DNA of 64,000 nucleotides from an uncultured cyanobacterium (GCA_963718615.1 OY970368.1:5216001-5280000); one strand, 5' to 3'. Shown: positions 1 through 35,059, counted from the first letter of the stretch. Program-made: numbers and translations. Notes: generated from the sequence alone by a model not told the origin.

Positions 1-3000
1 CATTCAATTGGTTTCCCCAGCGAGTGGGGAGCCACGGGTACACCAGAGAAGTTACACCGGACTCTTGAGTTTCCATTCAATTGGTTTCCCCAGCGAGTGG
101 GGAGTCGTCAGAGCATCCAGCGTTAGGCCCAGCGTCAGCATCGTTTCCATTCAATTGGTTTCCCCAGCGAGTGGGGAGTATAAGTAACCAACGAAGTTTT
201 TTTGATGACCTGAGGTTTCCATTCAATTGGTTTCCCCAGCGAGTGGGGAGAATCGCTTCTCTGGCGATCCGTGTTGATGGGCTGACGCCAGTTTCCATTC
301 AATTGGTTTCCCCAGCGAGTGGGGAGCCAGTGGGAAGCGATCAGCCTGCGGCTTTGCCAATGGGCGTTTCCATTCAATTGGTTTCCCCAGCGAGTGGGGA
401 GATACTCGCCGCCTACTGGAGCAGACGAGAACGGAGACCCTCTGTTTCCATTCAATTGGTTTCCCCAGCGAGTGGGGAGATAATAAGGAACGTCTCCATA
501 TACTAGAGTCTTTATGTTTCCATTCAATTGGTTTCCCCAGCGAGTGGGGAGAAAATAACTGTTGACATTATTGCTGATATCAGCAAAGTTTCCATTCAAT
601 TGGTTTCCCCAGCGAGTGGGGAGTGTTTACGGGACAATTATTTGTAGCGTAGGGGATAAAATGTTTCCATTCAATTGGTTTCCCCAGCGAGTGGGGAGAA
701 GATTGTGGATTTAGTCTGTGTCAGGGTCGTTAGCATGGTTTCCATTCAATTGGTTTCCCCAGCGAGTGGGGAGTGACGAAGTTGACACGCCTTACTTGCC
801 TGAGGTGGCATCCGACGGGTTTCCATTCAATTGGTTTCCCCAGCGAGTGGGGAGAATGGGCTTCTGCGGGGGGTCTACGGGCATTGTAGCTAGGTTTCCA
901 TTCAATTGGTTTCCCCAGCGAGTGGGGAGGGGCAACTGCAACCACAGGCACCGAACCCGATCTGAGTGTTTCCATTCAATTGGTTTCCCCAGCGAGTGGG
1001 GAGACGTAGATATGAAGCTTAAATTCTCGAAACCTGATGTTTCCATTCAATTGGTTTCCCCAGCGAGTGGGGAGCAAAGGTATGGATCGCCCATCCATTA
1101 CCCAAGTATTTTGGTTTCCATTCAATTGGTTTCCCCAGCGAGTGGGGAGTCGTTTTTTCAAATGCTTTATTCTCGGCAGATAGATAGTTTCCATTCAATT
1201 GGTTTCCCCAGCGAGTGGGGAGTTACCCTATCGAATCTTTAGACGAGCTCGAATTTAGCGACATCGTTTCCATTCAATTGGTTTCCCCAGCGAGTGGGGA
1301 GGCTGTCGATTGATGCCCCGCCCCGCATTGCCCAAGTGGTTTCCATTCAATTGGTTTCCCCAGCGAGTGGGGAGTTACTGCTGCTGCTAATGCGGTCGTA
1401 GTGAATGCACTTGTTTCCATTCAATTGGTTTCCCCAGCGAGTGGGGAGCGATTACATTCCCGGCGATAGCTTTCTGTGTCGCTTCCTCAAGTTTCCATTC
1501 AATTGGTTTCCCCAGCGAGTGGGGAGCCTTTTGTATTGGGCCACGATGCATTTCGCCATGTAAAGTTTCCATTCAATTGGTTTCCCCAGCGAGTGGGGAG
1601 TCAATAGGTACAAATAGGGTGTTTTTTAAGCCTTGGCAAATGTTTCCATTCAATTGGTTTCCCCAGCGAGTGGGGAGGATGACAAAGCATCTTTACCGTT
1701 TAACGTCTCCCATGTTTCCATTCAATTGGTTTCCCCAGCGAGTGGGGAGTCAAAAAGGTGGGGCTTACTTTCTCCAATCTGGTGGCCCTAGTTTCCATTC
1801 AATTGGTTTCCCCAGCGAGTGGGGAGTATAGATGATAAGGATACTCCATCGTTTACTGTAGTTTCCATTCAATTGGTTTCCCCAGCGAGTGGGGAGCTGA
1901 AGGTATCCAAAAGTGGTGAGATCAGGATGATGGTTTCCATTCAATTGGTTTCCCCAGCGAGTGGGGAGAGGTTGTGTACCTAACTTTAAATCTAACAAAC
2001 TATAGTTTCCATTCAATTGGTTTCCCCAGCGAGTGGGGAGTTAATAAGGATAGACTTAAATAAATTTAAACCTATAAACGATGTTTCCATTCAATTGGTT
2101 TCCCCAGCGAGTGGGGAGAAAAGACAAGCTAAGCAAGTTGTAGAACAAGCCCTAGTTTCCATTCAATTGGTTTCCCCAGCGAGTGGGGAGCTACGTCTTT
2201 TTCAACAAAGGGTTAGGACTACCCGAAGTTTCCATTCAATTGGTTTCCCCAGCGAGTGGGGAGTCACCAGAAAAGCTAAGAATAGACAGGAAAAAAGACA
2301 AGTTTCCATTCAATTGGTTTCCCCAGCGAGTGGGGAGGGTAGTTGTATTTTTATATGGAAATGTTTTATATGTATAGTTTCCATTCAATTGGTTTCCCCA
2401 GCGAGTGGGGAGTTACAGGAACCGGTCAAGTCAACGAACGGTAAGAGTTTCCATTCAATTGGTTTCCCCAGCGAGTGGGGAGCAGCAACCGCCCCGGCCC
2501 CCGACTTCAAGTTGCCAAGTTTCCATTCAATTGGTTTCCCCAGCGAGTGGGGAGGCGACTCGTCTGGCAACTTTATAGTGTAAACACCCTGTGTTTCCAT
2601 TCAATTGGTTTCCCCAGCGAGTGGGGAGCCGTATTGAGTCTTTTCTTTCTTTCGGCAGGTTTAGTTTCCATTCAATTGGTTTCCCCAGCGAGTGGGGAGT
2701 TTGCAATCGATCTTGACCAAACCGACCCGCCGGTTTATAAAGTTTCCATTCAATTGGTTTCCCCAGCGAGTGGGGAGGCTAAACGAATCAATCAGGTTGA
2801 GAGATTTGTGCAAAGTTTCCATTCAATTGGTTTCCCCAGCGAGTGGGGAGACTGTTAGTGGCTAAGCTGCCACTAGATAATGTTACTGTTTCCATTCAAT
2901 TGGTTTCCCCAGCGAGTGGGGAGAGGATATTATCATGAGTTTAGATACCAGAATTAACGAAGCGTTTCCATTCAATTGGTTTCCCCAGCGAGTGGGGAGG

Positions 3001-3344
3001 AAAACGCGATACAAGGATGCTGATGTGGCACCTCTACGTTTCCATTCAATTGGTTTCCCCAGCGAGTGGGGAGTTGGCAGTCACGCTCTGAGCCGCTACA
3101 CCAGCGGTTTTGTTGTTTCCATTCAATTGGTTTCCCCAGCGAGTGGGGAGAAAAACTTATACTCAATAAGTAATATCTTTTTACCATCACTAGTAGTTTC
3201 CATTCAATTGGTTTCCCCAGCGAGTGGGGAGGTGGTGGCAAGATGGCCAGAGAGATCGGGTGATTGAGTTTCCATTCAATTGGTTTCCCCAGCGAGTGGG
3301 GAGTAGTAGGTTTTGTGGATGTTTCCACCCGAACGATACGAAGT
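1..3344 (-). CRISPR. CRISPR array, leader-distal segment (1 partial + 44 full 36-bp repeats; continues beyond window start)
   Basis: Repeat GTTTCCATTCAATTGGTTTCCCCAGCGAGTGGGGAG with unique spacers of about 34-45 nt. The reverse complement ends in ATGGAAAC and has a 5' TCCCCA/TGGGGA hairpin, so transcription is inferred on minus. Counted by eye. Confidence 0.98.
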
Positions 3345-3513
3345 TGTTAGACGACAATAGCATTGGCGGCTGCTCGACATTTCCTGGCGGGAGTTGTCGC
3401 GAAAGCGTGGCTTGGATCGTGAGACAGACGTGAGACTTTGACAGCTCACTGGCGTGGCGATCGACAAAAAAAGACACTCATAGGGTCCCCCTGGAAAGAA
3501 AGGACTCTAACGA

Positions 3514-5304
3514 GTGTCGAGAGTAATAATGTATCAACAGCGAGTGTACATGAATGCAAAGGAGCATGGCCTGTCGCAGCAAGATGCGGCAGCGGTGGCG
3601 GAATTTTCGGTGCGAACCGCGCAACGAATGGATGCCAACGAGTGGCAGCAGGGGAGTGGAGAGGGCACCGGGGTGCGGACCCGGCCAGATCCACTCAACG
3701 GTCTTTGGGAAGCCGAACTAGAGGCGATGCTGCGAGCTGAGCCAAGACTGAAACCGACGACGTTATTTGAGCATTTGCAGGACAAATATCCGGGTCAATA
3801 TCCGCAAGTGCTCAGGACGCTTCAGCGGCGAGTGAGAACCTGGAAAGCACTGTATGGTCCAGCTCCCGAGGTGATGTTTGAGCTGCGTCACGAGCCGGGG
3901 GTGCAAGGATTTTCCGACTTCACCGAACTCAAAGGGACGGTGGTGACGATAAATGGAAAGCCCTATGAGCACTTGATTTATCACTACCGCTTGGGCTACA
4001 GCGGCTGGTCCTACGCGGAGTTAATCGAGGGGGGTGAAAGCTTTGTCGCCCTATCCGAAGGATTGCAGAATGCCCTGTTTGCCTGCGGCGGGGCTCCAAA
4101 GCAGCATCGCACCGATAGCCTGAGTGCGGCCTATCGAAATCTGGGTGGGAAGAAGACCAAACCGCTGACGCGCTTGTATGACGACCTGTGTGAGCACTAT
4201 CGGTTGCAACCGACGCGAAACAACCGGGGAATCGCCCACGAGAACGGTTCTATTGAAGGCCCCCACGGTCATCTGAAGAACCGCATTGTCCAAGCGATGT
4301 ACCTGCGCGGCAGCACCGACTTCGCTAGCGTCAGCGACTATCAAGACCTGCTCAATGACTGTGTGGCCAAGCTCAATGCCCAGCATCAGGATAAGTATGA
4401 GCATGAGAAAGCGCATCTCCAGGCGTTGCCCAAATACCGGGCTGCGGACTACGAACTCCTCACCGCTAAGGTGAGCAGCAACAGCACGATTGATATCCGC
4501 TGCATGCTCTACAGCGTGCCGTCTCGCTTAATTGGCCGGTCCCTGGAAGTGCATCTGCACCACAACCGCCTGATGGGCTACCTCGAAGGCCATGAAGTGT
4601 TCAGGTTGAAACGGATTCGTTCTACTGACAAGGACAAGCGGCGCGCCCGCTCGGTGGACTATCACCATGTCATCGAAGGGTTGCGCAAAAAGCCCTTGGC
4701 CTTCCTCCACAGCACCTGGCGAGAGGACCTCCTGCCCAATGAGCGCTATCACCAACTCTGGAAACAGCTCCAGGCTGGCTTTGAGCTTGATTCTGCCGCC
4801 GTGCTCATGGTCGAAGCCCTCTATATTGCGGCGACCCAAAACAAGGAAGCGGCGGTCGCTGACTACCTCTTCCCAGAGATTGAGGCCAAAACCCTCACCC
4901 TCTCAAGGCTCAGACTCCATTTTCAGTTGCTCACCAAACTCGAATTCCCCACCGTGAATGTCCAACAACATGACCTCAACGACTACGATGCCCTTCTGTT
5001 CACCCACAGCAGCGTCATCCCAGATGCAGAACCAGAGCTCGTCTCAACCGGAGCTGAGCCCTTACCAAAGCCTCAGCGCTCAGCTCAAGCACCTGCGCTT
5101 ATCCCATATGCTCAACCACTGGGAGACCTTGGAGCAGCAAGCCATGCGAGAGACCTGGTCCTACGCGCAATTTCTCTTGGCCCTGTGCCAACTCGAAACA
5201 GACCGCCGCAAGGCTTTGCGCCTCCAAAGAGCCATCACCGAAGCTCAACTGCCCAACGCCAAAACGGTTTCCAATTTCGATTGGACACACCTGCCCCTGG
5301 TTAA
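3514..5304 (+). CDS. istA: IS21 transposase IstA
   Basis: N-terminal HTH, integrase-like DDE core (SDFT, HRTDSL, HENGSIEG), YSVPSRLIG motif. Confidence 0.93.
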   Translation: MSRVIMYQQRVYMNAKEHGLSQQDAAAVAEFSVRTAQRMDANEWQQGSGEGTGVRTRPDPLNGLWEAELEAMLRAEPRLKPTTLFEHLQDKYPGQYPQVLRTLQRRVRTWKALYGPAPEVMFELRHEPGVQGFSDFTELKGTVVTINGKPYEHLIYHYRLGYSGWSYAELIEGGESFVALSEGLQNALFACGGAPKQHRTDSLSAAYRNLGGKKTKPLTRLYDDLCEHYRLQPTRNNRGIAHENGSIEGPHGHLKNRIVQAMYLRGSTDFASVSDYQDLLNDCVAKLNAQHQDKYEHEKAHLQALPKYRAADYELLTAKVSSNSTIDIRCMLYSVPSRLIGRSLEVHLHHNRLMGYLEGHEVFRLKRIRSTDKDKRRARSVDYHHVIEGLRKKPLAFLHSTWREDLLPNERYHQLWKQLQAGFELDSAAVLMVEALYIAATQNKEAAVADYLFPEIEAKTLTLSRLRLHFQLLTKLEFPTVNVQQHDLNDYDALLFTHSSVIPDAEPELVSTGAEPLPKPQRSAQAPALIPYAQPLGDLGAASHARDLVLRAISLGPVPTRNRPPQGFAPPKSHHRSSTAQRQNGFQFRLDTPAPG

Positions 5305-5872
5305 CCCTCTCCCGATTCAAAAACTCGCCACTGAACCCCAGTGGATTGATGACGCCCAAAACTGTCTCTTCTTCGGACCTTCTGGGGTCGGCAAAACCCA
5401 TCTGGCCGCTGGCATCGCTCGTGCCGCCCTGGAAGCGGGCAAGCGCGTCAAATTCTTCTGTGCCACCACCCTGGTGCAGTATCTCCAAAAAGAAAAGCTT
5501 CATCTCCAGCTTCAGCCTGCCCTGAAAAAGCTCGACCGCTTTGACCTCGTGATCATTGATGACCTCGGCTATGTCCAAAAATCCGAGGCAGAAACCTCCG
5601 TTCTCTTTGAACTCATTGCCTATCGCTATGAGCGCAAAAGCATCATGGTCACTGCCAATCAGCCGTTCAGTGAGTGGAACTCCATCTTTGGTGATTCCAT
5701 GATGACCGTCGCCGCCGTTGACCGCCTCATTCACCATGCGGTCATTCTCGAAATCAAGGCGGACAGTTTTCGTAAACGCTCCGCTCACCAGCGCTCTGAG
5801 AACTTGAAGGCACTCCCGGCAAAATCCTCTGAATCTGACTCCCAAACATCGACACACCAGAAGCGATCTTAG
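4958..5872 (+). CDS. istB: IS21 helper AAA+ ATPase IstB (true start may be downstream)
   Basis: Walker A GPSGVGKT, Walker B LVIIDDLG, AAVDRLIHH motif. Confidence 0.93.
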   Translation: MSNNMTSTTTMPFCSPTAASSQMQNQSSSQPELSPYQSLSAQLKHLRLSHMLNHWETLEQQAMRETWSYAQFLLALCQLETDRRKALRLQRAITEAQLPNAKTVSNFDWTHLPLVNPLPIQKLATEPQWIDDAQNCLFFGPSGVGKTHLAAGIARAALEAGKRVKFFCATTLVQYLQKEKLHLQLQPALKKLDRFDLVIIDDLGYVQKSEAETSVLFELIAYRYERKSIMVTANQPFSEWNSIFGDSMMTVAAVDRLIHHAVILEIKADSFRKRSAHQRSENLKALPAKSSESDSQTSTHQKRS

Positions 5873-5982
5873 ATTGTCGTCTTGACCTGAGATTGCCGCT
5901 TCTCATTTCCTTTTGCCAATTCAGTGGGCTCCCCGCCTTCTAATTGTCGCGACAGGCAAATGTCTTGACACTTGATAACGAA

Positions 5983-8420
5983 GTTTCCATTCAATTGGTT
6001 TCCCCAGCGAGTGGGGAGACGTAACCCAGAGAACGGATTAACAGAGGTAGATGCAGTTTCCATTCAATTGGTTTCCCCAGCGAGTGGGGAGTCGAAGCTT
6101 TCACGATCACGGGCGGCGGCATGGACAGCGGTTTCCATTCAATTGGTTTCCCCAGCGAGTGGGGAGCCGGGGCCGTCGTCGAAACCATCCAGGAGGACGC
6201 CTACGAAGTTTCCATTCAATTGGTTTCCCCAGCGAGTGGGGAGATCATAAACTTTCAGAAGGGCCAAAAAGTCATCGTTGATTTGGTTTCCATTCAATTG
6301 GTTTCCCCAGCGAGTGGGGAGGTAAATCAAGCCATGCTCGATGAAACGATGTCGTCCGGGTTTCCATTCAATTGGTTTCCCCAGCGAGTGGGGAGAGTTC
6401 ATGCGAAACAGCCACAACGCGCAAATCATTTGTGTTTCCATTCAATTGGTTTCCCCAGCGAGTGGGGAATTGAAAGCTAAGGGGATGTTACCGAGCAATT
6501 TCGCTCGGGATGGGTTTCCATTCAATTGGTTTCCCCAGCGAGTGGGGAGTGTTGCAATGGTACCGCTGCAACATCTGCCAACCACGACCGTGTTTCCATT
6601 CAATTGGTTTCCCCAGCGAGTGGGGAGTTTAGATAATTTTGTGAGGCTGAATAATGAAAGTATTGCCGGTTTCCATTCAATTGGTTTCCCCAGCGAGTGG
6701 GGAGCAAAATTGTGGATCCGGATTCTTTTGTTACGTCGAGGTTTCCATTCAATTGGTTTCCCCAGCGAGTGGGGAGAGCTAGTTAAGTTAATGGACTCGA
6801 TGTAAACACTAATACGTTTCCATTCAATTGGTTTCCCCAGCGAGTGGGGAGCTGATGGGTGATGACCGGGCGTTCCGGGCATTAGGATTGGTTTCCATTC
6901 AATTGGTTTCCCCAGCGAGTGGGGAGAGCTCAACAGTGCCGACGATCCGAGCCCCAGGTTACGACGTTTCCATTCAATTGGTTTCCCCAGCGAGTGGGGA
7001 GCCAGGGAAATACGTAGTTAAGGTTTCAGATACCACTAATCTAGTTTCCATTCAATTGGTTTCCCCAGCGAGTGGGGAGGTGACAGGTCCTCCCGCGCGG
7101 ATAGATCACCCAGTTCCAGGTTTCCATTCAATTGGTTTCCCCAGCGAGTGGGGAGTCAGCCCGATGGATACCTTAGTCAAAGCGCTGTATAGTTTCCATT
7201 CAATTGGTTTCCCCAGCGAGTGGGGAGAAAAAGGTAGAAGAGTTACAGGCGGCGCTAGACACAAGTTTCCATTCAATTGGTTTCCCCAGCGAGTGGGGAG
7301 TTAAAAGGAATATAGTTGTCGATGAGCCCACTACGAGTTTCCATTCAATTGGTTTCCCCAGCGAGTGGGGAGTTGATGTGTCGTTATCGCGCGCTAGCGC
7401 GGAGTACGTTTCCATTCAATTGGTTTCCCCAGCGAGTGGGGAGGTTTTACGCGGAGTTTCTTTCCGATACTTTAATGCCCCAGTTTCCATTCAATTGGTT
7501 TCCCCAGCGAGTGGGGAGGAACTAGTCTGTCTACTTGAACAAGCTCTAGTTCTAGAGTTTCCATTCAATTGGTTTCCCCAGCGAGTGGGGAGTGTTCAGC
7601 TTTCTTTAGTTGTAAGGAATTAGCTACAGTACGGTTTCCATTCAATTGGTTTCCCCAGCGAGTGGGGAGAAGCATTAACAGCCGGTAACCTATCCTCCCC
7701 GGTTCGTAGGTTTCCATTCAATTGGTTTCCCCAGCGAGTGGGGAGTTTAAATGCAGCCGTGGTAATAGCGTCAGAAAACCACTCTAAAGTTTCCATTCAA
7801 TTGGTTTCCCCAGCGAGTGGGGAGACGCCCGCTGCATCCGCTAAATCGGCTGTGTTCCAGCCGTGTTTCCATTCAATTGGTTTCCCCAGCGAGTGGGGAG
7901 CATTGCTTGTTGAGCTTCTGGATCTTCGTTGTGAACGTTTCCATTCAATTGGTTTCCCCAGCGAGTGGGGAGTAGATTATTATCAGCCACAAGAGAAACT
8001 GATGTTGTTTCTAGTTTCCATTCAATTGGTTTCCCCAGCGAGTGGGGAGATTTGCCATTGCCGCATTGCAGGCTGGCATACAGGGGCAAGTTTCCATTCA
8101 ATTGGTTTCCCCAGCGAGTGGGGAGCTGGGTGTAGATTACAACACATCTAACCTTCCTGAGGAGGTGTTTCCATTCAATTGGTTTCCCCAGCGAGTGGGG
8201 AGAAAAATGGTCTTTGGGGTGTCTGGACGGTCCCAGGAGGTTTCCATTCAATTGGTTTCCCCAGCGAGTGGGGAGCCCCAAAGCTTGATCAAGTTCGCAG
8301 CTCAACAGTGCCGGTTTCCATTCAATTGGTTTCCCCAGCGAGTGGGGAGTTAGAGGAGCCCCGGAGCTGTACGGAGAAGCCCTGGTTTCCATTCAATTGG
8401 TTTCCCCAGCGAGTGGGGAG
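5983..8420 (-). CRISPR. CRISPR array, leader-proximal segment (33 repeats, 32 spacers)
   Basis: Same 36-bp repeat from 5983 to 8420; one variant repeat at 6434-6469 ends in A instead of G. Confidence 0.98.
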
Positions 8421-8602
8421 CCCCCCCATTCTAGCCCCCTCTAGGCAAGGATTTCAAGCCCCCAGCGCGAGCCTCAAGCCGCCCAGAGCCAAAAGCCCCC
8501 CGCCCAAGCCCACAAAAAAGCCCAAAACCCTCACCCAGCATACCATCGAGCCTCCCAACGCAAAAACAACATCCCAGCCCCCTCCCCCCCAGCCTCGCAC
8601 CC
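8421..8602 (-). promoter_or_regulatory. CRISPR leader
   Basis: Non-coding segment between the cas2 stop and the first repeat, upstream of the array in the inferred orientation. Confidence 0.8.
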
Positions 8603-8881
8603 TCAAATCACAATCGACCCCGACGGCGAACTCAACGGCACCCCACCCCAAATCTCCACCTGATCCCGCGTATGACTCGACATCGGATAAAACCGCACCG
8701 AATCCTCCGGCAACTTCACATATCGCCCCAACTTTCGCTTCAATTCCTGATACTTTTTAGCCTCCAAACAACACTCAAAAACACTAAACTGCACCCGCCT
8801 GCCATAGCCCTCCAAAACATCAGCAACCTTCTTCCGACGACGATTACAAGAAACATCATAAACCACCACATACAACAACAT
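8603..8881 (-). CDS. cas2: CRISPR-associated Cas2
   Basis: YVVVYDVS...RRRKKVA...GRRVQFSVFEC...DSVRFYP. Confidence 0.97.
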   Translation of the reverse strand: MLLYVVVYDVSCNRRRKKVADVLEGYGRRVQFSVFECCLEAKKYQELKRKLGRYVKLPEDSVRFYPMSSHTRDQVEIWGGVPLSSPSGSIVI

Positions 8882-8893
8882 CAGTCCCACCCC

Positions 8894-9886
8894 CTAACGA
8901 ATTTGATAAGAGCGATAACTGCGGTGGTGATTCACCACACAATCCCGAAACACCTTCACCTGCTCATTCAACACCCCCCAACGCACCGACCTCACCCCCG
9001 GACTCACCTCAATCTCCTCCTCCATCCGCCGCACAAATGCCTGTAAATACTTACGCCGCCCCGACCCATTTAAGTAACATCCCCCCTCCGCCGACACCGT
9101 AAAATCATCCACCGCATCCATCATTCCGCGATTAATCAAATACAAAACCAACGAATCCACCACCGGAGCCCGAAACCCCTCCAACAAATCCGACGCCAAC
9201 GCCGCATGGCGCTCCGTCCCCTGATGCAAACAAGCCTCATAGGGATCCAAGCCCTGCATCTCAATCAAACACAGCAAATGGTTCCAGAGAATCTGATAGC
9301 CAAAACTCAGCATCGCATTCACCGGATTGCGCGGCGGACGCTTCGATCGCTCTCCAAAGACAAAATCCGGATGATCAAGACAAACATCCAACACCCCAAA
9401 ATAGGCCGAAGCCCCCGCCCCCTCATAGCCCATCAGCTCCGGAATCGACCTCGCCCGCAGCGCCTGATTACAAGCCATCTCCAACCGACTAATCGCCTCC
9501 ACCAACGCCTCCTGAGGCCGTCGTCGATGCTGCCGCTGCAAAACCGTCCGACTATTGCGCAACTTCGCAAACACCAACCGCTGAGCAATCTGCAACCGCC
9601 GTTCCGGGCTCAGCTCCCGCTGCAACCGCGCCAACTGCCGATAGCCCCGCGCCAGCGGCAACACCCGCCCATAGCAGCGCCCCGCCGACGAGAGATAGGC
9701 GATCGGCACATCCCGCTCCAAACAAGCACAAATCAACTGCGTCGTCAGCTGCGATTTCCCCAAAACCACAATTTGCTCAATCGACGGCAACGGAATCCGC
9801 TGGGCCTCATCGCCCTGCTTCAGCACCATCTGCTCCTGCTGAAGCGACAGATAGCAGCCATGCTGGGTAATATAGATAGTTTTCAT
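8894..9886 (-). CDS. cas1: CRISPR-associated integrase Cas1 (no RT or Cas4 fusion)
   Basis: LMGYEGAG, RSKRPPRNPVNAMLSFGY, LH, ALASDLLEGFRAPVVD; ATG at 9886 chosen as start. Confidence 0.97.
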   Translation of the reverse strand: MKTIYITQHGCYLSLQQEQMVLKQGDEAQRIPLPSIEQIVVLGKSQLTTQLICACLERDVPIAYLSSAGRCYGRVLPLARGYRQLARLQRELSPERRLQIAQRLVFAKLRNSRTVLQRQHRRRPQEALVEAISRLEMACNQALRARSIPELMGYEGAGASAYFGVLDVCLDHPDFVFGERSKRPPRNPVNAMLSFGYQILWNHLLCLIEMQGLDPYEACLHQGTERHAALASDLLEGFRAPVVDSLVLYLINRGMMDAVDDFTVSAEGGCYLNGSGRRKYLQAFVRRMEEEIEVSPGVRSVRWGVLNEQVKVFRDCVVNHHRSYRSYQIR

Positions 9887-9932
9887 AAACCTTAGACTGA
9901 GAGATCTTACCTTTCTCAATCAAGGCCAAAGC

Positions 9933-10196
9933 TCAAAAATCGGGAAAGGAAAATACTGACTTTTTGGAGCAATAGAACAGATTTTCTTCGACGCAATTGC
10001 AGACCGTAAAGCCGTGAAGGTATTGAGACAACAAGTGCTCCCTGAGCCAACGGTGAAACTGACGGAATAGAGTTGTATCATCCATTTCCCCCCGGTTGTA
10101 GATCACACGGATGGGGCGATCGCTCAATACAGCCAGCAGGGCCTCATAGCCTTCCCAGCTCGTATCATAGAGCATCAGTCGCTCCGTCTCTGGCAT
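9933..10196 (-). pseudogene. Internally deleted Uma2/DUF820-family endonuclease remnant
   Basis: N-terminus SWEGYEALL...RVIYNRGE resembles the Uma2 start and joins directly to a C-terminal-like DDTTLFRQFHRWLRE; nuclease core absent. Confidence 0.65.
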
Positions 10197-10252: not shown

Positions 10253-11734
10253 TTAGAGTTGAGCGATCGCCTCTTTTAACTCTCGATGGATCTCAGCCAT
10301 AAAACTTGCTGCTTCTAAGGAATCAAACGATTGCCCCGTCACAAAATTCAAACAAGACAACACACAACTTTGCCAATCAGCCTCATTCTCCGTCTTCCAA
10401 GCCCGAAAAACCTCCTCCTTCTGTAAACCCTCAATTGTATGAAACGCACTATTACGCTGATCTTTTGCCTCCTCCCATACAATTTGGATCTTGCCATGAG
10501 TCTTCCAATTGGTTTTCTCTTGTCTTAGTAACTCGTATAAAGGGTCACCAAATAATCCGATATTTCCATACCTCTCAAGTTTCTTCTGATTGGGCTCTGA
10601 CAATTCAGTTTTATAGTTATCGAAGACCGTCAAAATTGAATCCTTTAACTGCAATCCAAATCTAGGATGTTCTTGGATGTGGTTACTATATTCACTTTTT
10701 GCCCAAGCCAGAATTGTTCCCTCTAACCCCCGAAAGCTATGGAATAAAGCTTCTACTGTGTTTTCCTGCTGTAACCGGACCCAAGCTAGATAAGCTGACT
10801 CATATCCCAACCGCCACCAAGGAAATGAATTCTTTGCAATCACATTGCCCTTCACGAGCTTATTCTTAAACTTATGAAACTCTGCATGATTCCACTCGAT
10901 CGCCGCATCTAGCAGCACCTTGATCCGCTTTTCCTTGGATTCCCTCGTATCTAAATACCGCCCCAATAACCGCTCTATCCCCGAATAGTCATAGCGTTCG
11001 AGCAGAGCCTTCACCTCCTGCAACCGCAATGCACTCAAATAAGTAGAACCCTCAATCACCCTAGTACGATCGGGCCGATACTCATTACTCACTAAAAACT
11101 CAACGCGATCTTCAAATTTCGCCAAACAAGAAAACTGAACCGCTGACGAAATAGCTGGAGTCCCCGCCTGATGACTCACAAATACCTTCTGTGGCTCCAC
11201 CTCAAACTTCAGCATCCCAATCTCCCGACGAACCACCTTCAACACCGCATCCCAATCATCTAGCCCCTCATCCAAAGAATCCGGAAACAAAACCAACTGC
11301 GAGATCTTCGCCGCTGGTAATAATGACTGCAAATACTGAGACACGATCGGATATAACAAGCAAGTATCCTGCCAATAAGGACAGCGATAGCTTTCTCGGC
11401 TCTCCTCCTCAAAAATATTACTTTGGTCACTCGTCAACACGACAATTTGATTAATCGATTCCGTCGGCAGCTTTTCACAGAATTCCTTCAAGAGTGGAAA
11501 TTCTAACTGTGGCTTTACCTCTTCTTCTAGTTCTTGATACGCAAGCCCCAGAACCCTAGATGCTATCCGATAAGGAACTCCATCATCATCGTCTGTACGA
11601 CTTGGCTCAAATCGTTTACGTTCGATATTGTAAATCGATCGCTTTATCTGTCGATGCCAATCCGGCCAGACATCCGCATCTCGAATTTGAACATCACTAC
11701 TTCCCAGCGTTACGAGCCATAGAGCCATGAGCAT
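10253..11734 (-). CDS. csm6: Csm6-like CARF-helical-HEPN ancillary ribonuclease
   Basis: CARF-like motifs LVTLGSSD, LTSDQ, VSHQAGTPAIS; helical LLERYDYSG; HEPN R-x4-H motif RNSAFH; directly after cmr6. Confidence 0.7.
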   Translation of the reverse strand: MLMALWLVTLGSSDVQIRDADVWPDWHRQIKRSIYNIERKRFEPSRTDDDDGVPYRIASRVLGLAYQELEEEVKPQLEFPLLKEFCEKLPTESINQIVVLTSDQSNIFEEESRESYRCPYWQDTCLLYPIVSQYLQSLLPAAKISQLVLFPDSLDEGLDDWDAVLKVVRREIGMLKFEVEPQKVFVSHQAGTPAISSAVQFSCLAKFEDRVEFLVSNEYRPDRTRVIEGSTYLSALRLQEVKALLERYDYSGIERLLGRYLDTRESKEKRIKVLLDAAIEWNHAEFHKFKNKLVKGNVIAKNSFPWWRLGYESAYLAWVRLQQENTVEALFHSFRGLEGTILAWAKSEYSNHIQEHPRFGLQLKDSILTVFDNYKTELSEPNQKKLERYGNIGLFGDPLYELLRQEKTNWKTHGKIQIVWEEAKDQRNSAFHTIEGLQKEEVFRAWKTENEADWQSCVLSCLNFVTGQSFDSLEAASFMAEIHRELKEAIAQL

Positions 11735-11737
11735 CCT

Positions 11738-13405
11738 CTACCAAAGTTGTTTAAAGTCTGTTTCTTGATCTAAAAACTTGAGGAAATTCTGTACAGTTTG
11801 CTGCTGTTCAGTCCCCTGGACATGGGGAAACATCGTCAACAGCTCCACATATTGCCCAGTCTCCCGCCAAATATTCTTACCCTCAGCAGTCTTTCTAATC
11901 TGAAATCGCGGATACATGCGATGCCAAAGTCGGCCTATTTTCCCCATCTCTCCAGTTAAGTCTGATTTTTTAATCGTCTTCTCTCGGGCATAATTTCTAT
12001 GCAACCAGTCGATTGCCACACTGTCCAATTCATCCTCCGCAATCCTCCCCCAAACTTGGACATTCCCCTTTCGCCAAGCTTCTCGGATTCCAGCCTGTGG
12101 TTGACCTGGATTCTGTAACCACGAAAACTCAGCCCCTTTCTGTACAAAAACATCTAAGAACTTAGTAATACCCGTCATCTCATCGTTCCCCGGTGAAATA
12201 TAAAACGGGTGCGATCGCTTTAGAAACTCCCAGTGACATCCAATCATCTGGTCCTTGTAGTTAGGACAAAACAATCGATGGTCCGCCCGTCGCCAAGATT
12301 TACCAAACCCCCCCAGCAACATTGCAAATTTCATTAGCCGCATAACAAAAGCCTTTAAATCATCCTGCTGAGCCTGGGTCAGGTTCAATCGCATGAGCAA
12401 AATATCCAGCCTCGCATCTCCTGTTTCATAGATTGGGGCAATATTTTTCGGATTGGTTTCGCTCTTCCACCAATCCACCTCTAAAGCAGGTGCATTAAAG
12501 GCGATACCTAATAGCCCCACTGTCGCCTCTTCCCCCTTACCAATTCCACCCCAAAGGAGTTTCGTCATCCGCTCAGCCGTTGCTTCATCCGTAATTCCGC
12601 TAAATAATCGTCGCGTATGTCCACGCAAAGTCGCTTTGAACAAATTAGGTCGAAACTCACCATCGGCGTAGCGATCGATCTGCCGAGAAGCCATGCCCTG
12701 ACCCGATAGACCAAAACCAACAAGTTTATTTTCCGTATGGGTTGCGATCTGTCCATAGCCAGCACTTACCCGAGAACCAATACCTTGCTCTAGCGCTACT
12801 TGCCAGATATCCCAGACTGTTTTCCATTGTTCTTGAGAGAGCTCTTTTGTACTAGAAATACCAAAGACGAACATAGGCTTGTAGAGAGAAATCTGGATAA
12901 AAGCACCATTGCTTTTCTCTCCATCAAGCTGCCAATTTTCCTGGGGATGAACAATATCCACCAGAGAATTCTTTAACCATTCAGTATTTTTGGGATAGCC
13001 TCCATGAAAGCGCAAACAACCGGGATGTAAATCTCCATCGTTCCCCTCACCACCGCAAAATTCTAAGACTTCGCTGGGTGAACAAAGACGTTTACAGGCC
13101 CGCAAAAAAGCTCCCTTCATGCTAGATCCTGGGAAAAAGGCCCAACCACGCTCCCCAATCACTGGACGGATGACACCTACATCCTGCCCACTATTCGTTA
13201 CCATGCGCCAGGGAAAGCGATAGGTTCGTGTTTGAATATGGGGATCAAACTGCGGTACTTGACTAATATCACAGGCTTCTTGCCATTGTTTTGCCCAGTC
13301 ATAGGCTTGTTGCCGATTAGCCTTTGGAATCAATCGTTGAATCTGCGATCGCCCCTCAACCTGGGCCTGAAACATTAAAGGTACTCGCTCATACTCTGAT
13401 GGCAT
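11738..13405 (-). CDS. cmr6: Cmr6-Cmr1 fusion RAMP protein (type III-B variant)
   Basis: Two RAMP units: FPGSSMKGAF...DIVHPQ...GIGSRVSAGYG (Cmr6-like), then FRPNLFKATLR...LLGGFGKSWRR (Cmr1-like). Confidence 0.85.
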   Translation of the reverse strand: MPSEYERVPLMFQAQVEGRSQIQRLIPKANRQQAYDWAKQWQEACDISQVPQFDPHIQTRTYRFPWRMVTNSGQDVGVIRPVIGERGWAFFPGSSMKGAFLRACKRLCSPSEVLEFCGGEGNDGDLHPGCLRFHGGYPKNTEWLKNSLVDIVHPQENWQLDGEKSNGAFIQISLYKPMFVFGISSTKELSQEQWKTVWDIWQVALEQGIGSRVSAGYGQIATHTENKLVGFGLSGQGMASRQIDRYADGEFRPNLFKATLRGHTRRLFSGITDEATAERMTKLLWGGIGKGEEATVGLLGIAFNAPALEVDWWKSETNPKNIAPIYETGDARLDILLMRLNLTQAQQDDLKAFVMRLMKFAMLLGGFGKSWRRADHRLFCPNYKDQMIGCHWEFLKRSHPFYISPGNDEMTGITKFLDVFVQKGAEFSWLQNPGQPQAGIREAWRKGNVQVWGRIAEDELDSVAIDWLHRNYAREKTIKKSDLTGEMGKIGRLWHRMYPRFQIRKTAEGKNIWRETGQYVELLTMFPHVQGTEQQQTVQNFLKFLDQETDFKQLW

Positions 13406-13827
13406 TACTTTTTCTCCTTACTCTTTGGTTTTTTGTAACGCTGCGTCCACCAAACTAAGCTGTCACATAATTCAATTAAAATCGCTAAAGCAACCTTACG
13501 CTGCTCAATATCAAAACCCCAGAGCTTTTCAGACATTGCTTTGATTGAACTCGTATCTTTGAGATTTATCTTTTCATTCGGCAGTTTTATGCCTGCCTGC
13601 TTCATGATCTTGCACAGTTCATCCCAGGTCGCCTTCCAAAACTCCGACTTCGCCTGCTCTTCATCTTTCTTGCTCTGGGCCAGTCGCAAATGCTCACCCC
13701 AAAAGCGCTCTAAGCCATAGGGCGTCGTCATTCGCATTTTATGACTTTCACCCAAAACCTCGCGATCGCGAAACTTCAGCACCAAATCATGGGCTACACG
13801 ATCAATCTCATACATTTGCCAACTCAT
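13405..13827 (-). CDS. cmr5: Type III-B small subunit Cmr5 (Cas11)
   Basis: About 140-aa helical protein between cmr4 and cmr6, ATGA overlap with cmr4 stop; call rests mainly on position. Confidence 0.7.
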   Translation of the reverse strand: MSWQMYEIDRVAHDLVLKFRDREVLGESHKMRMTTPYGLERFWGEHLRLAQSKKDEEQAKSEFWKATWDELCKIMKQAGIKLPNEKINLKDTSSIKAMSEKLWGFDIEQRKVALAILIELCDSLVWWTQRYKKPKSKEKK

Positions 13828-14651
13828 GCTGCTACTCCTGCGCCCTTTAGCGTGATCATGCAATTTCCAAAGCCGATTGACTCCAAACCTCCCAGATAAA
13901 TCTCACCACTCTGATTCTTAGCTCCAAAAGGCTGCCAGGATTTCGAAGTATCTCTGGTTTCACGAATCGCGATCGGGAACACCATGATCGTTCCTTCCGG
14001 CAGTGCTTCCGTATTAAAAAAGCCCCCACCATCTACCCGTTTCTCCTCGTCTAGCAATCGCACCCGACTTTGACGATAGAGCGCCATGTCATGAATCATC
14101 CCAATTTCATCATCCCCAACCACCACTGCTGGTAGTTCTTCTCCATCAGGGAACCATGCCTTCAAATTCTCAGTTTTCTTCAGCTCTAAAAAGCCAAAGT
14201 TGAAAAACAGTTTTTTCTTATTCTCAACATTCATAGTCTTGAGTGTTGACGAGCCTGTATATGCCTTAGGGACAGTTGCCGCTTTCATCTCACCACCGAC
14301 AATACGCTGGTATCGTTTCAACAGCTTTGGTGAACTCACCCAAACCACCGGCTGCCCAGGGCAAAACACCGGCAACCATACCACAGAAGCATACTCAAAC
14401 TTGACGACTGATTCCGTTGTAGAATTCGACTCTCCGGTTTCTGCAGGTGCACCGTACCAGTGGTTGACATCACCTTCATCCTGTCGCATTTCCGATCGAA
14501 ATCGACCCCGAATCGAGCTACCTGGAATAATCCCCGTTTGGGTAAACTGATCGCGAAAAATTAAATTTAGGTTACCGCTTTCTTCCCCCGCTGTTGCACC
14601 CACATGCAGTGGTGCAAGGGCTTCAATAATGCCATAAGCGCGTTTGTACAT
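13824..14651 (-). CDS. cmr4: Cmr4 (Cas7 backbone RAMP)
   Basis: PLHVGA...IIPGSSIRGRFR, FFNTEALPEGT, YLGGLESIGFG. Confidence 0.92.
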   Translation of the reverse strand: MYKRAYGIIEALAPLHVGATAGEESGNLNLIFRDQFTQTGIIPGSSIRGRFRSEMRQDEGDVNHWYGAPAETGESNSTTESVVKFEYASVVWLPVFCPGQPVVWVSSPKLLKRYQRIVGGEMKAATVPKAYTGSSTLKTMNVENKKKLFFNFGFLELKKTENLKAWFPDGEELPAVVVGDDEIGMIHDMALYRQSRVRLLDEEKRVDGGGFFNTEALPEGTIMVFPIAIRETRDTSKSWQPFGAKNQSGEIYLGGLESIGFGNCMITLKGAGVAA

Positions 14652-14663
14652 GTTCCTTTCTCC

Positions 14664-15692
14664 TTATGTAAGACCTTGAATTGCCACCGGAAGGCACAAA
14701 CCACAGCCCAAATGCTTGAGCGGAAACCCCTCCCGAGGAAACCACTCCTCCGGAAATTCCCACCATGTTTTGTCTAAGGGTTCCTTCAGCGCATACACCG
14801 TCCCCGCTGGAACACCATAGCGCCCTCGCCCCAATCTTCCTCGCTCTGTCGCTCGATGCCCAATCCGATAACGAAACGGCACGGGCTTATCCGTTAACGT
14901 TTGCATACCACCACGCGGAAATGCTTCATGCTTCGGATAGCGATAGGACAAGTTCTTAGAACCCCATACTCCCGGCGTAATCAGGGCAAATGCCTTCTGG
15001 ATTTTGGTATTCAGCAACTTGTTAATTTTGCTTTCCGGCGCGATCGCTTGACTGCTAATCTCCACCATATGCCCCTCCCCTCCAAAGCGATACCACCCAT
15101 CAGGGATTGCATGGGTAGATAGATACACCAGGCAACTATCCTCATCCATCTGCACTGCACTTTCTAGAAATAAACCATCTTGTTCCAAAACATGACGCTG
15201 TTCCTGTTGCATTTGAGGATGTAGAAACGTCAGAGGTAGCCAAGGAACTTTCTCCGCTGATTCCTTACGAATTTGCCGGGTTGATTGACTCCAAGAATCA
15301 ATTCGCTGCCAGCGATACTCTGCCTCTAGCTCTTGCTTTTTAGGATCTGAATCGCGCTGCCACTTGCGCCGCTCATCCAGTCGCCACTCATCCTCATCCC
15401 CCTGGGCGATAATACGATGTCTGGGAATTGGCACATAAAACGATTCTGCATCTTCCAAAGACTTCGCCCAAAATGGCCCAGCGACATGGAGCTGATACTT
15501 CAGCGTTTCATGGTCAGCAATCTCCATCTGCTTATTCGCTCCAAAAAATAGGCCCGCTAACGTTGCCGCATCTGGAGGAAACTTCGCACCCGACCGCCCG
15601 ACTAAGTTATCCGGTGATAGAAAAGCACCTGCACTGCCATATAGCAGTCCCAAGGGCATCACCGTAATCAAATATTTGAACATAGTTGCCAT
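14664..15692 (-). CDS. cmr3: Cmr3 (Cas5 family)
   Basis: FPPDAATLAG, GPF, RFGGEGH, LITPG, VPAGTVY, terminal G-rich loop. Confidence 0.92.
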   Translation of the reverse strand: MATMFKYLITVMPLGLLYGSAGAFLSPDNLVGRSGAKFPPDAATLAGLFFGANKQMEIADHETLKYQLHVAGPFWAKSLEDAESFYVPIPRHRIIAQGDEDEWRLDERRKWQRDSDPKKQELEAEYRWQRIDSWSQSTRQIRKESAEKVPWLPLTFLHPQMQQEQRHVLEQDGLFLESAVQMDEDSCLVYLSTHAIPDGWYRFGGEGHMVEISSQAIAPESKINKLLNTKIQKAFALITPGVWGSKNLSYRYPKHEAFPRGGMQTLTDKPVPFRYRIGHRATERGRLGRGRYGVPAGTVYALKEPLDKTWWEFPEEWFPREGFPLKHLGCGLCLPVAIQGLT

Positions 15693-17218: not shown

Positions 17219-17414
17219 TAGTAATCGTACCCAGTCACTACGAGTAATCTCTGAACACAGAGTAACAGTAGTCACCAGCATCAGGCTAGAGAAAAGACAA
17301 TATTCTTAAAATAAGTCTAACTTACTCAAAAACTTACTTTACAGGACATTCAACTCCTATACTCTAAAACATTATTATTGCCTTTTCCAAATCTGGAAAA
17401 CCTATCTGGAAACC

Positions 17415-32263: not shown

Positions 32264-32486
32264 TGACTCGTTAACGTTAATGATGACAAACTCAGATCTT
32301 GCACTGAAGCGATTTATTTATTTACTGACCGTCTTTAACTTAATTCAATTGTAATTCATAAATTCTATGCTCAAGCAAAAGTATCAAGTGTCAAGACATT
32401 TGCCTGTCGCGACAATTAGAAGGCGGGGAGCCCACTGAATTGGCAAAAGGAAATGAGAAGCGGCAATCTCAGGTCAAGACGACAAT

Positions 32487-34845: not shown

Positions 34846-35059
34846 TCGTTAGAGTCCTTTCTTTCCAGGGGGACCCTATGAGTGTCTTTTTTTGTCGATC
34901 GCCACGCCAGTGAGCTGTCAAAGTCTCACGTCTGTCTCACGATCCAAGCCACGCTTTCGCGACAACTCCCGCCAGGAAATGTCGAGCAGCCGCCAATGCT
35001 ATTGTCGTCTAACACAAAAGTATCAGTCAGATATGTAGTAAGACATATTTTCAAACCCA

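What the first reader, a model, noticed from the sequence alone, without database searches (positions are those of the whole stretch)
3304..6018. IS21 insertion at a spacer/repeat junction creates a chimeric anti-IS guide
Seen: the duplication ACGAAGT spans 5 nt of spacer plus 2 nt of repeat, so the repeat at 5983-6018 is intact. On the transcribed strand it is followed by TTCGT and then the IS end (TATCAAGTGTCAAGACATTTGCC...). Inference: processing would give a tag-bearing crRNA complementary to istB read-through RNA from either IS copy, and pre-crRNA read-through is antisense to istAB. The array could thus act as a transposon trap without Cas1. Copy 2 mismatches the first 5 guide positions, which might allow binding with little Cas10 activation.
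Basis: partly seen in the sequence, partly recalled or inferred. Interest (0 to 1): 0.7.

Follow-up and report, generated by a model that had tools for sequence, protein, structure and literature searches.

The report
Jumping gene inside a CRISPR array
A recently active IS21-type jumping gene has landed in one spacer of a cyanobacterial type III CRISPR array, so the array may now make a hybrid guide RNA against the jumping gene's own tail, but nothing here suggests this is more than a tolerated accident.

Summary
A 2,633-bp IS21-family element (window 3345-5977, istA-istB on +) sits in spacer 33 of a 107-repeat array. It is flanked by a 7-bp duplication, ACGAAGT (3338-3344 and 5978-5984), and the repeat at 5983-6018 is intact.

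The array is read on the minus strand. Its repeat (28/36 identical), leader, promoter position and cas1-cas2 layout match the studied Synechocystis CRISPR3 (III-Bv) system. Four Cas6 models find nothing in this complete genome, and RNase E is present. The tag is therefore probably a 13-14-nt RNase E handle rather than an 8-nt Cas6 tag.

The predicted hybrid guide is TTCGT plus the antisense IS end. Its positions 6-35 pair perfectly with all 14 IS right ends in the genome. Positions 1-5 pair fully only with the in-array copy, whose flank also pairs with the whole handle, so it reads as self.

In Thermus Cmr, mismatches at positions 1-5 abolish cOA signalling. The expected outcome is therefore at most slicing of a 3' tail about 76 nt past the istB stop. 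Two stable hairpins, one terminator-like, lie before or over that target.

Intact cas1 and cas2 adjoin the leader. Twelve near-identical IS copies show no sign of restraint. No RNA data were available. I judge it a real but ordinary, recent insertion; the "transposon trap" remains untested.

The parts
1..8420 (-). Part of the CRISPR array inside the window. The whole array has 107 repeats of 36 nt and runs from window -2861 to 8420. It is read on the minus strand, from right to left.
   Evidence: The degenerate repeats (5 and 4 mismatches) lie only at the far left end.
8421..8602 (-). Leader. A promoter-like site, TTGAAA-18-TAGAAT (8457 to 8428), ends 7 nt before the first repeat.
   Evidence: The motif CGTTGGGAG(G/C)CTCGATGG and TA(G/A)AATGGGGG just before repeat 1 are shared with the pSYSA CRISPR3 leader. 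The transcribed leader of CRISPR3 is 2 nt (figure legend in PMC12464536).
8603..8890 (-). cas2
   Evidence: TIGR01573, 59.4 bits against a cut-off of 24.5. 55% identical to pSYSA Cas2.
8894..9919 (-). cas1
   Evidence: Pfam Cas_Cas1, E 1.6e-87. TIGR00287, 220 bits. 52% identical to pSYSA CRISPR3 Cas1.
10253..17281 (-). Effector operon: Cas10/Cmr2 (15668-17281, GGDD present, no HD domain hit), Cmr3 (14664-15692), Cmr4 (13824-14651), a 152-aa Cmr5-like protein (13405-13863), a 555-aa large RAMP-like protein (11738-13405), and a 493-aa Csm6-like protein with an RNSAFH motif (10253-11734).
3268..3303 (-). Repeat 34 from the leader, the next repeat downstream of the IS in the direction of transcription.
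3304..3342 (-). Complete original spacer 33 (39 nt). It is now cut off from its upstream repeat and so has no 5' handle.
3338..3344 (.). Left copy of the target-site duplication, ACGAAGT. The last 2 nt, GT, are a stub of the repeat.
3345..5977 (+). IS21-family element, 2,633 bp.
   Evidence: 12 full copies with at most 1 mismatch or indel, 1 interrupted copy and 1 113-bp end fragment in the genome. The ends are set by the flanking duplications.
3514..5304 (+). istA, the transposase. This is the longest ORF; the true start was not determined.
   Evidence: NF033546 (IS21 family transposase), 215 bits against a cut-off of 160.
4958..5872 (+). istB, the helper ATPase. This is the longest ORF; the model match begins at residue 43.
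   Evidence: NF038214, 270 bits against a cut-off of 200. Pfam IstB_IS21, E 4.6e-66.
5859..5903 (+). Hairpin across the istB stop codon, followed by UCAUUUCCUUUUG. A candidate terminator upstream of the guide's target.
   Evidence: -16.9 kcal/mol, z -3.5, 0 of 200 shuffles fold as well.
5904..5962 (+). Second hairpin in the IS 3' tail. It pairs positions 5950-5962 of the target.
   Evidence: -19.5 kcal/mol, z -3.74, 2 of 200 shuffles fold as well.
5965..5970 (+). TTGACA facing outward, 7 nt from the IS right end. It lies inside the guide's target.
   Evidence: Read. That IS21 uses such a -35 box in a junction promoter is my recollection, not from any call.
5948..5982 (-). Predicted guide of the hybrid crRNA, in its 35-nt form (the 29-nt form ends at 5954). 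It is TTCGT followed by 30 nt of antisense IS right end.
   Evidence: Sequence. The lengths are inferred from the 48- and 42-nt CRISPR3 crRNAs with a 13-14-nt handle (PMC12464536).
5978..5984 (.). Right copy of the target-site duplication, ACGAAGT: 5 nt of spacer plus 2 nt of repeat.
5983..6018 (-). Intact repeat 33. Its last 13 nt on the minus strand (5983-5995, ATTGAATGGAAAC) are the predicted 5' handle.
   Evidence: The stem-loop folds as expected.
32382..35014 (-). Second IS copy in the window, with a 6-bp duplication CTTTTG.

Best explanation
An IS21-family element that is in a recent burst of transposition has inserted, probably by chance, into spacer 33 of a type III-B array of the Cas6-less, RNase E-processed kind (III-Bv-like). 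Transcription starts at a promoter that abuts repeat 1, next to cas2-cas1. It runs on the minus strand through 32 intact units and the intact repeat 33, then into 5 nt of old spacer and the IS right end in antisense.

Shown here:
- the insertion, its duplication and its orientation;
- the integrity of the repeat, the cas genes and the leader.

Inferred by homology with Synechocystis CRISPR3:
- RNase E cuts repeat 33 and leaves a 13-14-nt handle.
- Trimming leaves a 42- or 48-nt hybrid crRNA whose guide is TTCGT plus 24 or 30 nt of antisense IS end.

Inferred from studies of other type III complexes:
- The guide can pair with the last 30 nt of sense RNA from any IS copy.
- On the 13 other right ends, guide positions 1-5 are mismatched, so Cas10 should make no cOA.
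- On the in-array copy the flank also pairs with the handle, so it is read as self.

The net effect is at most slicing of a non-coding 3' tail, together with loss of crRNA 33 and probably weaker expression of the 73 older spacers. I read the hybrid guide as a tolerated by-product, not as a defence.
For: The insertion is real and recent:
- 7-bp duplication.
- 12 full copies with at most 1 difference in 2,633 bp, 3 of them 100% identical including this one.
- The 13 target sites share no consensus.

Direction and type of the array:
- Degenerate repeats occur only at the far end.
- A promoter-like site ends 7 nt before repeat 1.
- The repeat is 28/36 identical to the pSYSA CRISPR3 repeat, and one difference is a compensatory stem pair.
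- The leader shares motifs with pSYSA.
- Cas1 is 52%, Cas2 55% and Cmr4 32% identical to pSYSA.
- 4 of 4 Cas6 models find nothing in a genome rated 100% complete, and RNase E is present.

CRISPR3 maturation (passages of PMC12464536):
- The repeat has a stem-loop at nt 2-18.
- RNase E produces a 13/14-nt handle.
- Mature crRNAs are 42 and 48 nt long.

Pairing, across all 14 right ends:
- Positions 6-35 pair perfectly with all 14.
- Positions 1-5 and the handle pair fully only with the in-array copy.
- The other 13 have 0-3 Watson-Crick pairs in positions 1-5.

Signalling parts are present: Cas10 carries GGDD and the Csm6-like protein carries RNSAFH.

In Thermus Cmr, mismatches at nt 1-5 leave RNA cleavage intact but abolish cOA production (passages of PMC8376896).

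None of the 175 spacers from the three arrays matches the IS.
Against: - There are no RNA data of any kind for this organism, so neither the pre-crRNA nor the hybrid crRNA has been seen.
- The normal 3' end of III-Bv crRNAs begins with an RNase J cut near the spacer's 3' end. That site is missing here, so maturation of this unit could fail.
- The rule about positions 1-5 comes from Thermus Cmr, whose effector is only distantly related. This Cas10 is a short 537-aa form.
- By my own arithmetic, the chance that at least one of 13 random insertions hits the 8.6-kb array in a 6.1-Mb genome is about 2%. That is low, although insertions in dispensable DNA survive preferentially.
- I could not find an allele without the IS, so the age of the insertion is unknown.
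Confidence: 0.7

Rival explanations
1. The insertion gives the type III system a working anti-IS guide without Cas1-mediated adaptation. The hybrid crRNA, together with the long antisense read-through RNA, lowers istAB expression from all copies. The array would then act like a piRNA cluster.
For: - The geometry is right: an intact repeat, antisense orientation, and 30 nt of perfect pairing with all 14 right ends.
- The effector genes look intact.
- In Thermus Cmr, mismatches at nt 1-5 keep target cleavage, so slicing without toxicity is conceivable.
Against: - The target lies 76-110 nt downstream of the istB stop, so cutting there removes no coding sequence.
- A -16.9 kcal/mol hairpin with a U-rich tail lies before the target, and a -19.5 kcal/mol hairpin covers part of it.
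- 12 near-identical copies show a recent, unrestrained burst.
- This is a single case: none of 9 related plasmid arrays has an IS-size gap between neighbouring repeats; the one large gap (10.5 kb, Nostoc sp. C052) spans the cmr operon.
- Terminator-like sites on the minus strand at 5598-5585 and 5344-5328 could limit the antisense RNA to the 3' part of istB.
Confidence: 0.08
2. No hybrid crRNA accumulates at all. The insertion only destroys crRNA 33 and, through polarity, weakens or silences the 73 older spacers downstream.
For: - III-Bv maturation normally starts with a cut near the spacer's 3' end, next to the following repeat. That context is now 2.6 kb away.
- Terminator-like sites lie on the minus strand inside the IS.
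- No promoter-like site faces out of the IS left end.
Against: - RNase E recognises the repeat stem-loop itself, and that repeat is intact.
- The 42- and 48-nt sizes are thought to reflect protection by the complex, not the sequence.
Confidence: 0.3
3. The insertion was kept by selection because it removes a harmful spacer, or the older part of the array, for example one that targets the host's own genome.
For: None specific. Array 2 does carry a spacer with a perfect match to the chromosome, so spacers that match the genome do occur here.
Against: - Spacer 33 and the other spacers of this array have no match elsewhere in the genome beyond 16-17-nt chance hits.
- Spacer 33 has no match in the two public collections scanned.
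Confidence: 0.03
4. Assembly artefact: a repeated IS was wrongly placed inside the array.
For: The element is present in 12 identical copies, which can confuse assemblers.
Against: - The element has a clean 7-bp duplication made of the spacer-repeat junction.
- The genome is a single contig rated 100% complete.
Confidence: 0.02

Closest known systems
Synechocystis sp. PCC 6803 CRISPR3 (subtype III-Bv) on plasmid pSYSA
   Same: - 36-nt repeat, 28/36 identical, with the same 5' stem-loop and single-stranded 3' half.
- Homologous leader, with the promoter abutting repeat 1.
- cas1-cas2 next to the leader; Cas1 52% and Cas2 55% identical.
- Cmr2-3-4-5 plus a large RAMP protein, and no cas6.
   Different: - The effector proteins are distant: Cmr4 32%, Cmr3 26%, large RAMP 21%.
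- Cas10 is 537 aa against 979 aa, with only a 40-residue local match.
- The 87-aa ORF in the csx18 position matched no family and neither Csx18.
- The 39 repeats of pSYSA CRISPR3 have no large gap.
Leptolyngbya boryana plasmid pLBX type III-B locus
   Same: - Same gene order: WYL, Cas10, Cmr3, Cmr4, a small protein, a large protein, a CARF-like protein, then cas1-cas2.
- Identities range from 45% to 77% across these proteins.
- Its repeats end in AATTGAATGGAAAC.
   Different: - It has three uninterrupted arrays and no IS inside them.
- It is carried on a plasmid.
IS6110 insertions in the Mycobacterium tuberculosis type III-A CRISPR (DR) locus
   Same: - An active IS sits inside a type III array.
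- Short target duplications split a repeat-spacer unit (passages of PMC7708916).
   Different: - It is a different IS family and a Cas6-dependent III-A system.
- Most insertions lie within the repeat.
- The consequences discussed are deletions by IS recombination. The passages I read do not mention a hybrid guide.
IS-disrupted CRISPR2 array of E. coli ATCC 8739 (type I-E)
   Same: An array interrupted by an IS. The authors suggest a cis effect on transcription of the distal spacers (passage of PMC2886076).
   Different: It is a DNA-targeting type I system, so a guide against IS RNA would have no role.
Animal piRNA clusters (the trap model)
   Same: The concept only: a transposon that lands antisense in a guide-producing locus becomes a source of guides against its own family (search listing).
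   Different: - The machinery is unrelated.
- At most one guide would be made here, against a non-coding tail.
- Neither guide production nor silencing has been shown.

Membership tests
IS21 family insertion sequence | IstA DDE transposase | tested here: met
   NF033546, 215 bits against a cut-off of 160.
IS21 family insertion sequence | IstB AAA+ helper encoded downstream of istA on the same strand | tested here: met
   NF038214, 270 bits against a cut-off of 200. Pfam IstB_IS21, E 4.6e-66. Gene order.
IS21 family insertion sequence | Short direct target duplications (the 4-8 bp range is recalled, not from a call) | tested here: met
   6 bp at 11 of 13 sites, 7 bp at 1 site and 8 bp at 1 site.
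IS21 family insertion sequence | Terminal inverted repeats with repeated inner motifs | tested here: inconclusive
   Only an imperfect, gapped match of about 38 nt between the two ends, plus a shared TGTCGCGA motif. The left end starts with TG; the complement of the right end starts with TA.
Type III-B effector module | Cas10/Cmr2 with a cyclase palm domain, plus Cmr3 and Cmr4 | tested here: met
   Pfam Cmr2_N and Cas10 palm2 both exceed their gathering scores, as does Pfam Cas_Cmr3. The NCBIfam Cmr2 match is below its cut-off (55.3 against 79.4). Cmr4 TIGR02580 scores 91.7 against a cut-off of 87. A GGDD motif is seen in P0001.
Type III-B effector module | Cmr5 and Cmr6/Cmr1 subunits | tested here: inconclusive
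   The 152-aa and 555-aa proteins match no family. They do align with the syntenic proteins of L. boryana, of the genome's second system and, for the 555-aa protein at 21% identity, of pSYSA. The paralogue in the second system gives a weak Cmr6 hit.
Subtype III-Bv (Synechocystis CRISPR3 type) | No Cas6 associated with the system | tested here: met
   PF10040, PF01881, TIGR01877 and TIGR02807 give 0 matches in the whole genome, rated 100% complete. A very divergent Cas6 cannot be excluded.
Subtype III-Bv (Synechocystis CRISPR3 type) | 36-nt repeat with a stem-loop at nt 2-18 and a single-stranded 3' half | tested here: met
   28/36 identity to the pSYSA repeat, with a compensatory C-G to U-A change in the stem. 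The stem is predicted. The description of the repeat comes from PMC12464536.
Subtype III-Bv (Synechocystis CRISPR3 type) | RNase E cleavage giving a 13-14-nt 5' handle and 42/48-nt crRNAs | not testable with these tools
   An RNase E gene is present. No RNA data were available.
Subtype III-Bv (Synechocystis CRISPR3 type) | csx18-cas1-cas2 next to the leader | tested here: inconclusive
   cas1 and cas2 are present. The 87-aa ORF in the csx18 position has no family hit and no BLAST hit to either Csx18.
Transposon trap (piRNA-cluster-like) | A transposon inserted antisense in a guide-producing locus | tested here: met
   istAB lies on the + strand and the array is read on the - strand.
Transposon trap (piRNA-cluster-like) | Mature guides made from the inserted copy | not testable with these tools
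   No RNA holder was listed.
Transposon trap (piRNA-cluster-like) | Silencing of the other copies in trans | not testable with these tools
   Indirect evidence only: 12 near-identical copies give no sign of restraint.

The most novel reading that the evidence does not exclude
Type III arrays could gain immunity to a transposon without Cas1. An IS lands antisense just after a repeat, and the array then makes a handle-bearing guide against the IS end. The few spacer nucleotides left between the handle and the IS mismatch the Cas10-activating positions on every other copy. The guide would then slice IS RNA, and the read-through RNA would act as antisense, without triggering toxic cOA signalling. 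A weaker variant follows from the same logic: only insertions with such a "signalling-dead" geometry survive, so IS insertions in type III arrays should avoid placing an antisense IS end directly against the handle.
Probability: 0.07. Interest if true: 0.75.

Novelty: new member of a known kind. Interest (0 to 1): 0.3.

Why it matters
If the hybrid guide were made and active, it would be a Cas1-independent way for an RNA-targeting CRISPR system to acquire a guide against a transposon. That would be a bacterial parallel to piRNA-cluster traps.

As the evidence stands, the value is more modest. This is a cleanly defined natural case in which an intact repeat is fused to a 5-nt spacer stub and an IS end. 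The system resembles one whose crRNA maturation by RNase E and RNase J has been studied. The case could therefore be used to ask two questions:
- Does III-Bv maturation need the downstream repeat?
- Do mismatches at guide positions 1-5 protect a cell from self-targeting?

It also corrects the expected tag length and processing enzyme for this array.

Tried and rejected
RNA evidence:
- The look-up of sequencing runs listed no RNA holder. The three runs offered had shares of 0.00-0.03.
- Read laying placed only one 255-nt contig, on istA 3935-4189 in run X2, and one 33-nt piece on a repeat in X1. Neither says anything about the crRNA or about expression.

Allele without the IS:
- Exact scans for spacer 33 and spacer 34 in genome contigs and metagenome contigs gave 0 hits each. 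Records of the window's own genome may be left out of those collections.

Relatives:
- The family and the order each hold only 8 genomes, G000 included. 1 of the 7 others has a few repeats of this type.
- None of the 7 has the IS. One has only a 72-nt fragment like the right end, next to another transposase. Most of these genomes are incomplete.

Other searches:
- The IS has no near match in the plasmid collection.
- Rfam gave 0 matches at E up to 0.1 on 3200-8700.
- I fetched 7 cyanobacterial plasmid loci with related repeats or related Cmr4 genes, out of the 15 records and 26. None of their 9 arrays has an IS-size gap between neighbouring repeats. One, in Nostoc sp. C052, has a single 10.5-kb gap that spans the cmr operon and sets 3 repeats apart, next to an annotated transposase. 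The sample is too small to test for bias, and the PLSDB gene tables omit pseudogenes.

Target preference of the IS:
- The 13 sites share no consensus.

Literature:
- Of the 15 papers listed (of 30 found), 0 hold both "CRISPR array" and "transposon trap".
- The searches returned no title or abstract, and no passage, describing a guide made from an IS inserted in an array.

Full report
**What is there**

The left 8.4 kb of the window is part of one large CRISPR array. A search of the whole genome with the 36-nt repeat finds 107 copies, all on one strand, from window -2861 to 8420. Only three deviate from the consensus. Two, with 5 and 4 mismatches, lie at the far left end, and one, with a single mismatch, lies at 6434. 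Of the 106 intervals between repeats, 104 are 34-45 bp. One is 719 bp, near the left end. One is 2,679 bp (3304-5982) and is the 33rd interval counted from the right end.

**The insertion**

- The 2,679-bp interval holds an element with 12 full-length copies in the genome, one copy interrupted by another insertion, and one 113-bp right-end fragment.
- The full copies differ from this one by at most one mismatch or indel in 2,633 bp, and three, including this one, are identical.
- Comparison of flanks sets the element at 3345-5977.
- At 11 of 13 sites it is flanked by a 6-bp duplication, at one by 8 bp, and here by 7 bp: ACGAAGT at 3338-3344 and 5978-5984.
- The right-hand copy of the duplication is 5 nt of spacer plus GT, the first two bases of the repeat. 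The repeat at 5983-6018 is therefore complete, and the old 39-nt spacer (3304-3342) is also complete on the left side, followed by a GT stub.
- The element encodes an IS21-family transposase (NF033546, 215 bits, cut-off 160) and an IstB helper (NF038214, 270 bits, cut-off 200) on the + strand.
- Its terminal inverted repeats are imperfect.

**Which strand is read, and what kind of system it is**

On the minus strand, directly to the right of the array, lie:
- cas2 (8603-8890) and cas1 (8894-9919);
- a Csm6-like protein with an RNSAFH motif;
- two proteins without family hits;
- Cmr4, Cmr3 and a 537-aa Cas10 that has GGDD but no HD domain hit.

A promoter-like site, TTGAAA-18-TAGAAT, ends 7 nt before the first repeat.

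The closest studied system is CRISPR3 of Synechocystis 6803 plasmid pSYSA:
- Its repeat is 28/36 identical to this one, and one of the differences is a compensatory change in the stem.
- Its leader shares CGTTGGGAG(G/C)CTCGATGG and a TA(A/G)AATGGGGG box directly before repeat 1.
- Its Cas1 is 52%, Cas2 55% and Cmr4 32% identical.
- The gene layout is the same.

A closer effector relative, with the same short Cas10 and the same gene order, is on Leptolyngbya boryana pLBX. Its proteins are 45-77% identical.

Passages of PMC12464536 describe CRISPR3 as follows:
- It has no Cas6.
- Its repeat forms a stem-loop at nt 2-18, with nt 19-36 single-stranded.
- RNase E cuts downstream of the stem and leaves a 13- or 14-nt 5' handle.
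- An RNase J cut near the spacer's 3' end comes first.
- Mature crRNAs are 48 and 42 nt long.
- The transcribed leader is 2 nt.

The stem-loop position fits this repeat only when it is read on the minus strand. Four Cas6 models find nothing in this complete genome, and RNase E is present.

The tag, however, is more likely a 13-14-nt RNase E handle, (A)AUUGAAUGGAAAC, than a Cas6 tag.

The genome also has a second, paralogous Cmr set with its own 52-repeat array, and a type I-C system with a 22-repeat array.

**The hybrid unit**

After the insertion, repeat 33 is followed on the minus strand by TTCGT and then by the antisense IS right end. With a 35-nt guide the unit covers 5982 down to 5948. 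I compared this guide with all 14 IS right ends in the genome:
- Positions 6-35 pair perfectly with all 14.
- Positions 1-5 pair fully only with the in-array copy. The other 13 have 0-3 Watson-Crick pairs there, and copy 2 in the window has none.
- The 13 handle bases pair fully only with the in-array copy, because its flank is the repeat itself.

Passages of PMC8376896 report for Thermus Cmr that mismatches in nt 1-5 do not stop target cleavage. They do abolish cOA production and activation of the CARF nuclease. That pairing with the tag marks a target as self is my recollection of the type III literature, not the result of a call.

Taken together, no IS copy should trigger Cas10 signalling. 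At most, the tail of IS transcripts would be sliced.

**Is the target there?**

- The guide's target (5948-5982) begins 76 nt after the istB stop at 5872.
- A hairpin spanning the stop (5859-5903; -16.9 kcal/mol; 0 of 200 shuffles fold as well) is followed by UCAUUUCCUUUUG and could terminate transcription.
- A second hairpin (5904-5962; -19.5 kcal/mol; 2 of 200 shuffles fold as well) pairs 5950-5962. In Thermus Cmr the matching part of the guide would be the seed region.
- The consensus terminator scan found only a weak site, at 5924-5936.

Whether istAB RNA reaches the IS end therefore remains open, and the sequence gives some reason for doubt.

**Other consequences of the insertion**

- The old spacer 33 now lacks an upstream repeat and cannot receive a handle.
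- Pre-crRNA must cross 2.6 kb of antisense IS to reach the 73 older units.
- Two terminator-like sites lie on the minus strand at 5598-5585 and 5344-5328. No promoter-like site faces out of the IS left end.
- Any antisense RNA may therefore cover only the 3' part of istB.

**Is it more than an accident?**

- None of the 175 spacers from the three arrays matches the IS.
- The 13 target sites share no motif.
- The element is the most abundant long repeat in the genome, and its copies are nearly identical. It has been moving recently, and nothing suggests it is held in check.
- By my arithmetic, the array without the IS is about 8.6 kb of 6.1 Mb. The chance that at least one of 13 random insertions hits it is about 2%, and higher if only dispensable DNA tolerates insertions. 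This is a post-hoc figure for a single event and carries little weight.
- Among 9 related arrays on 7 cyanobacterial plasmid loci, none has an IS-size gap between neighbouring repeats. The one large gap (10.5 kb, Nostoc sp. C052) spans the cmr operon.
- I found no allele without the IS and no second occurrence.
- Expression could not be examined.

**Comparison with what is known**

IS elements inside CRISPR arrays are well documented:
- IS6110 sits at several positions in the type III-A locus of M. tuberculosis. There the discussion concerns deletions by IS recombination (passages of PMC7708916).
- An IS sits in E. coli ATCC 8739 CRISPR2. The authors suggest an effect on distal transcription (passage of PMC2886076).

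My searches returned no paper that describes a guide arising from such an insertion. Among the 15 papers listed, none combines "CRISPR array" with "transposon trap".

**Verdict**

The functional part, an anti-IS trap, is untested, and the geometry argues against a strong effect. The best reading is a recent, probably neutral or mildly harmful IS21 insertion whose hybrid crRNA, if made, cannot trigger signalling on any copy. Interest is modest at 0.3. The locus would nevertheless be a convenient natural test of III-Bv crRNA maturation and of tolerance to self-targeting.

Noticed in passing
G000:C1:2193474 (array 2 spacer, outside the window) against G000:C1:2569020-2569056 = L025:5021-5057: One 37-nt spacer of the genome's second III-B-like array matches the chromosome 37/37. 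The match lies inside a 501-aa ORF with DUF11 and SdrD B-like domains. The crRNA would have the same sense as the mRNA, so it should not pair with it.
   Followed up: partly
window -2753 to -2035 (G000:C1:5213247-5213965), the trailer end of the array: The 719-bp gap between repeats holds a small ORF that looks XisI-like to me (the name is recalled, not tested), a truncated repeat, and an element of about 105 bp with a long palindrome. The same element also lies at G000:C1:5133681-5133783 and inside the last interval of array 2 (2194081-2194189), so it sits at the trailer end of both type III arrays.
   Followed up: partly
window 5965-5970 (+): A perfect TTGACA faces outward 7 nt from the IS right end. 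It could form hybrid promoters with flanking DNA or with a neighbouring left end. The IS21 junction-promoter precedent is my recollection. In this array it would drive RNA antisense to crRNAs 32 to 1, but the flank offers only poor -10 candidates (read).
   Followed up: no
G000:C1:2184142-2194245 (L013, L014): The genome has a second, paralogous short-Cas10 Cmr set with a 52-repeat array of a different repeat and no adjacent cas1-cas2 among the proteins I scanned. Identities to the window's proteins are Cas10 37%, Cmr3 43% and Cmr4 52%.
   Followed up: partly
G000:C1:1557864-1561788: One IS21 copy is itself split by a 1,285-bp insertion, with a 7-nt overlap of the two halves. Another mobile element has therefore jumped into it.
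   Followed up: no
window 9933-10196 (-): An 87-aa ORF sits where csx18 lies in related loci. It matches no Pfam or NCBIfam family and neither of the two Csx18 proteins compared.
   Followed up: partly
L020:1350-2606 (Nostoc sp. C052 plasmid pC052_B): Three repeats of the same family lie beyond the cmr operon, next to an annotated transposase and an HTH gene. They are 10.5 kb from the main array.
   Followed up: no
L027:1490-1573 (G003:C361): A relative carries only a fragment of about 72 nt, 88% identical to this IS's right end, butted against what looks like another IS's zinc-finger transposase gene.
   Followed up: no
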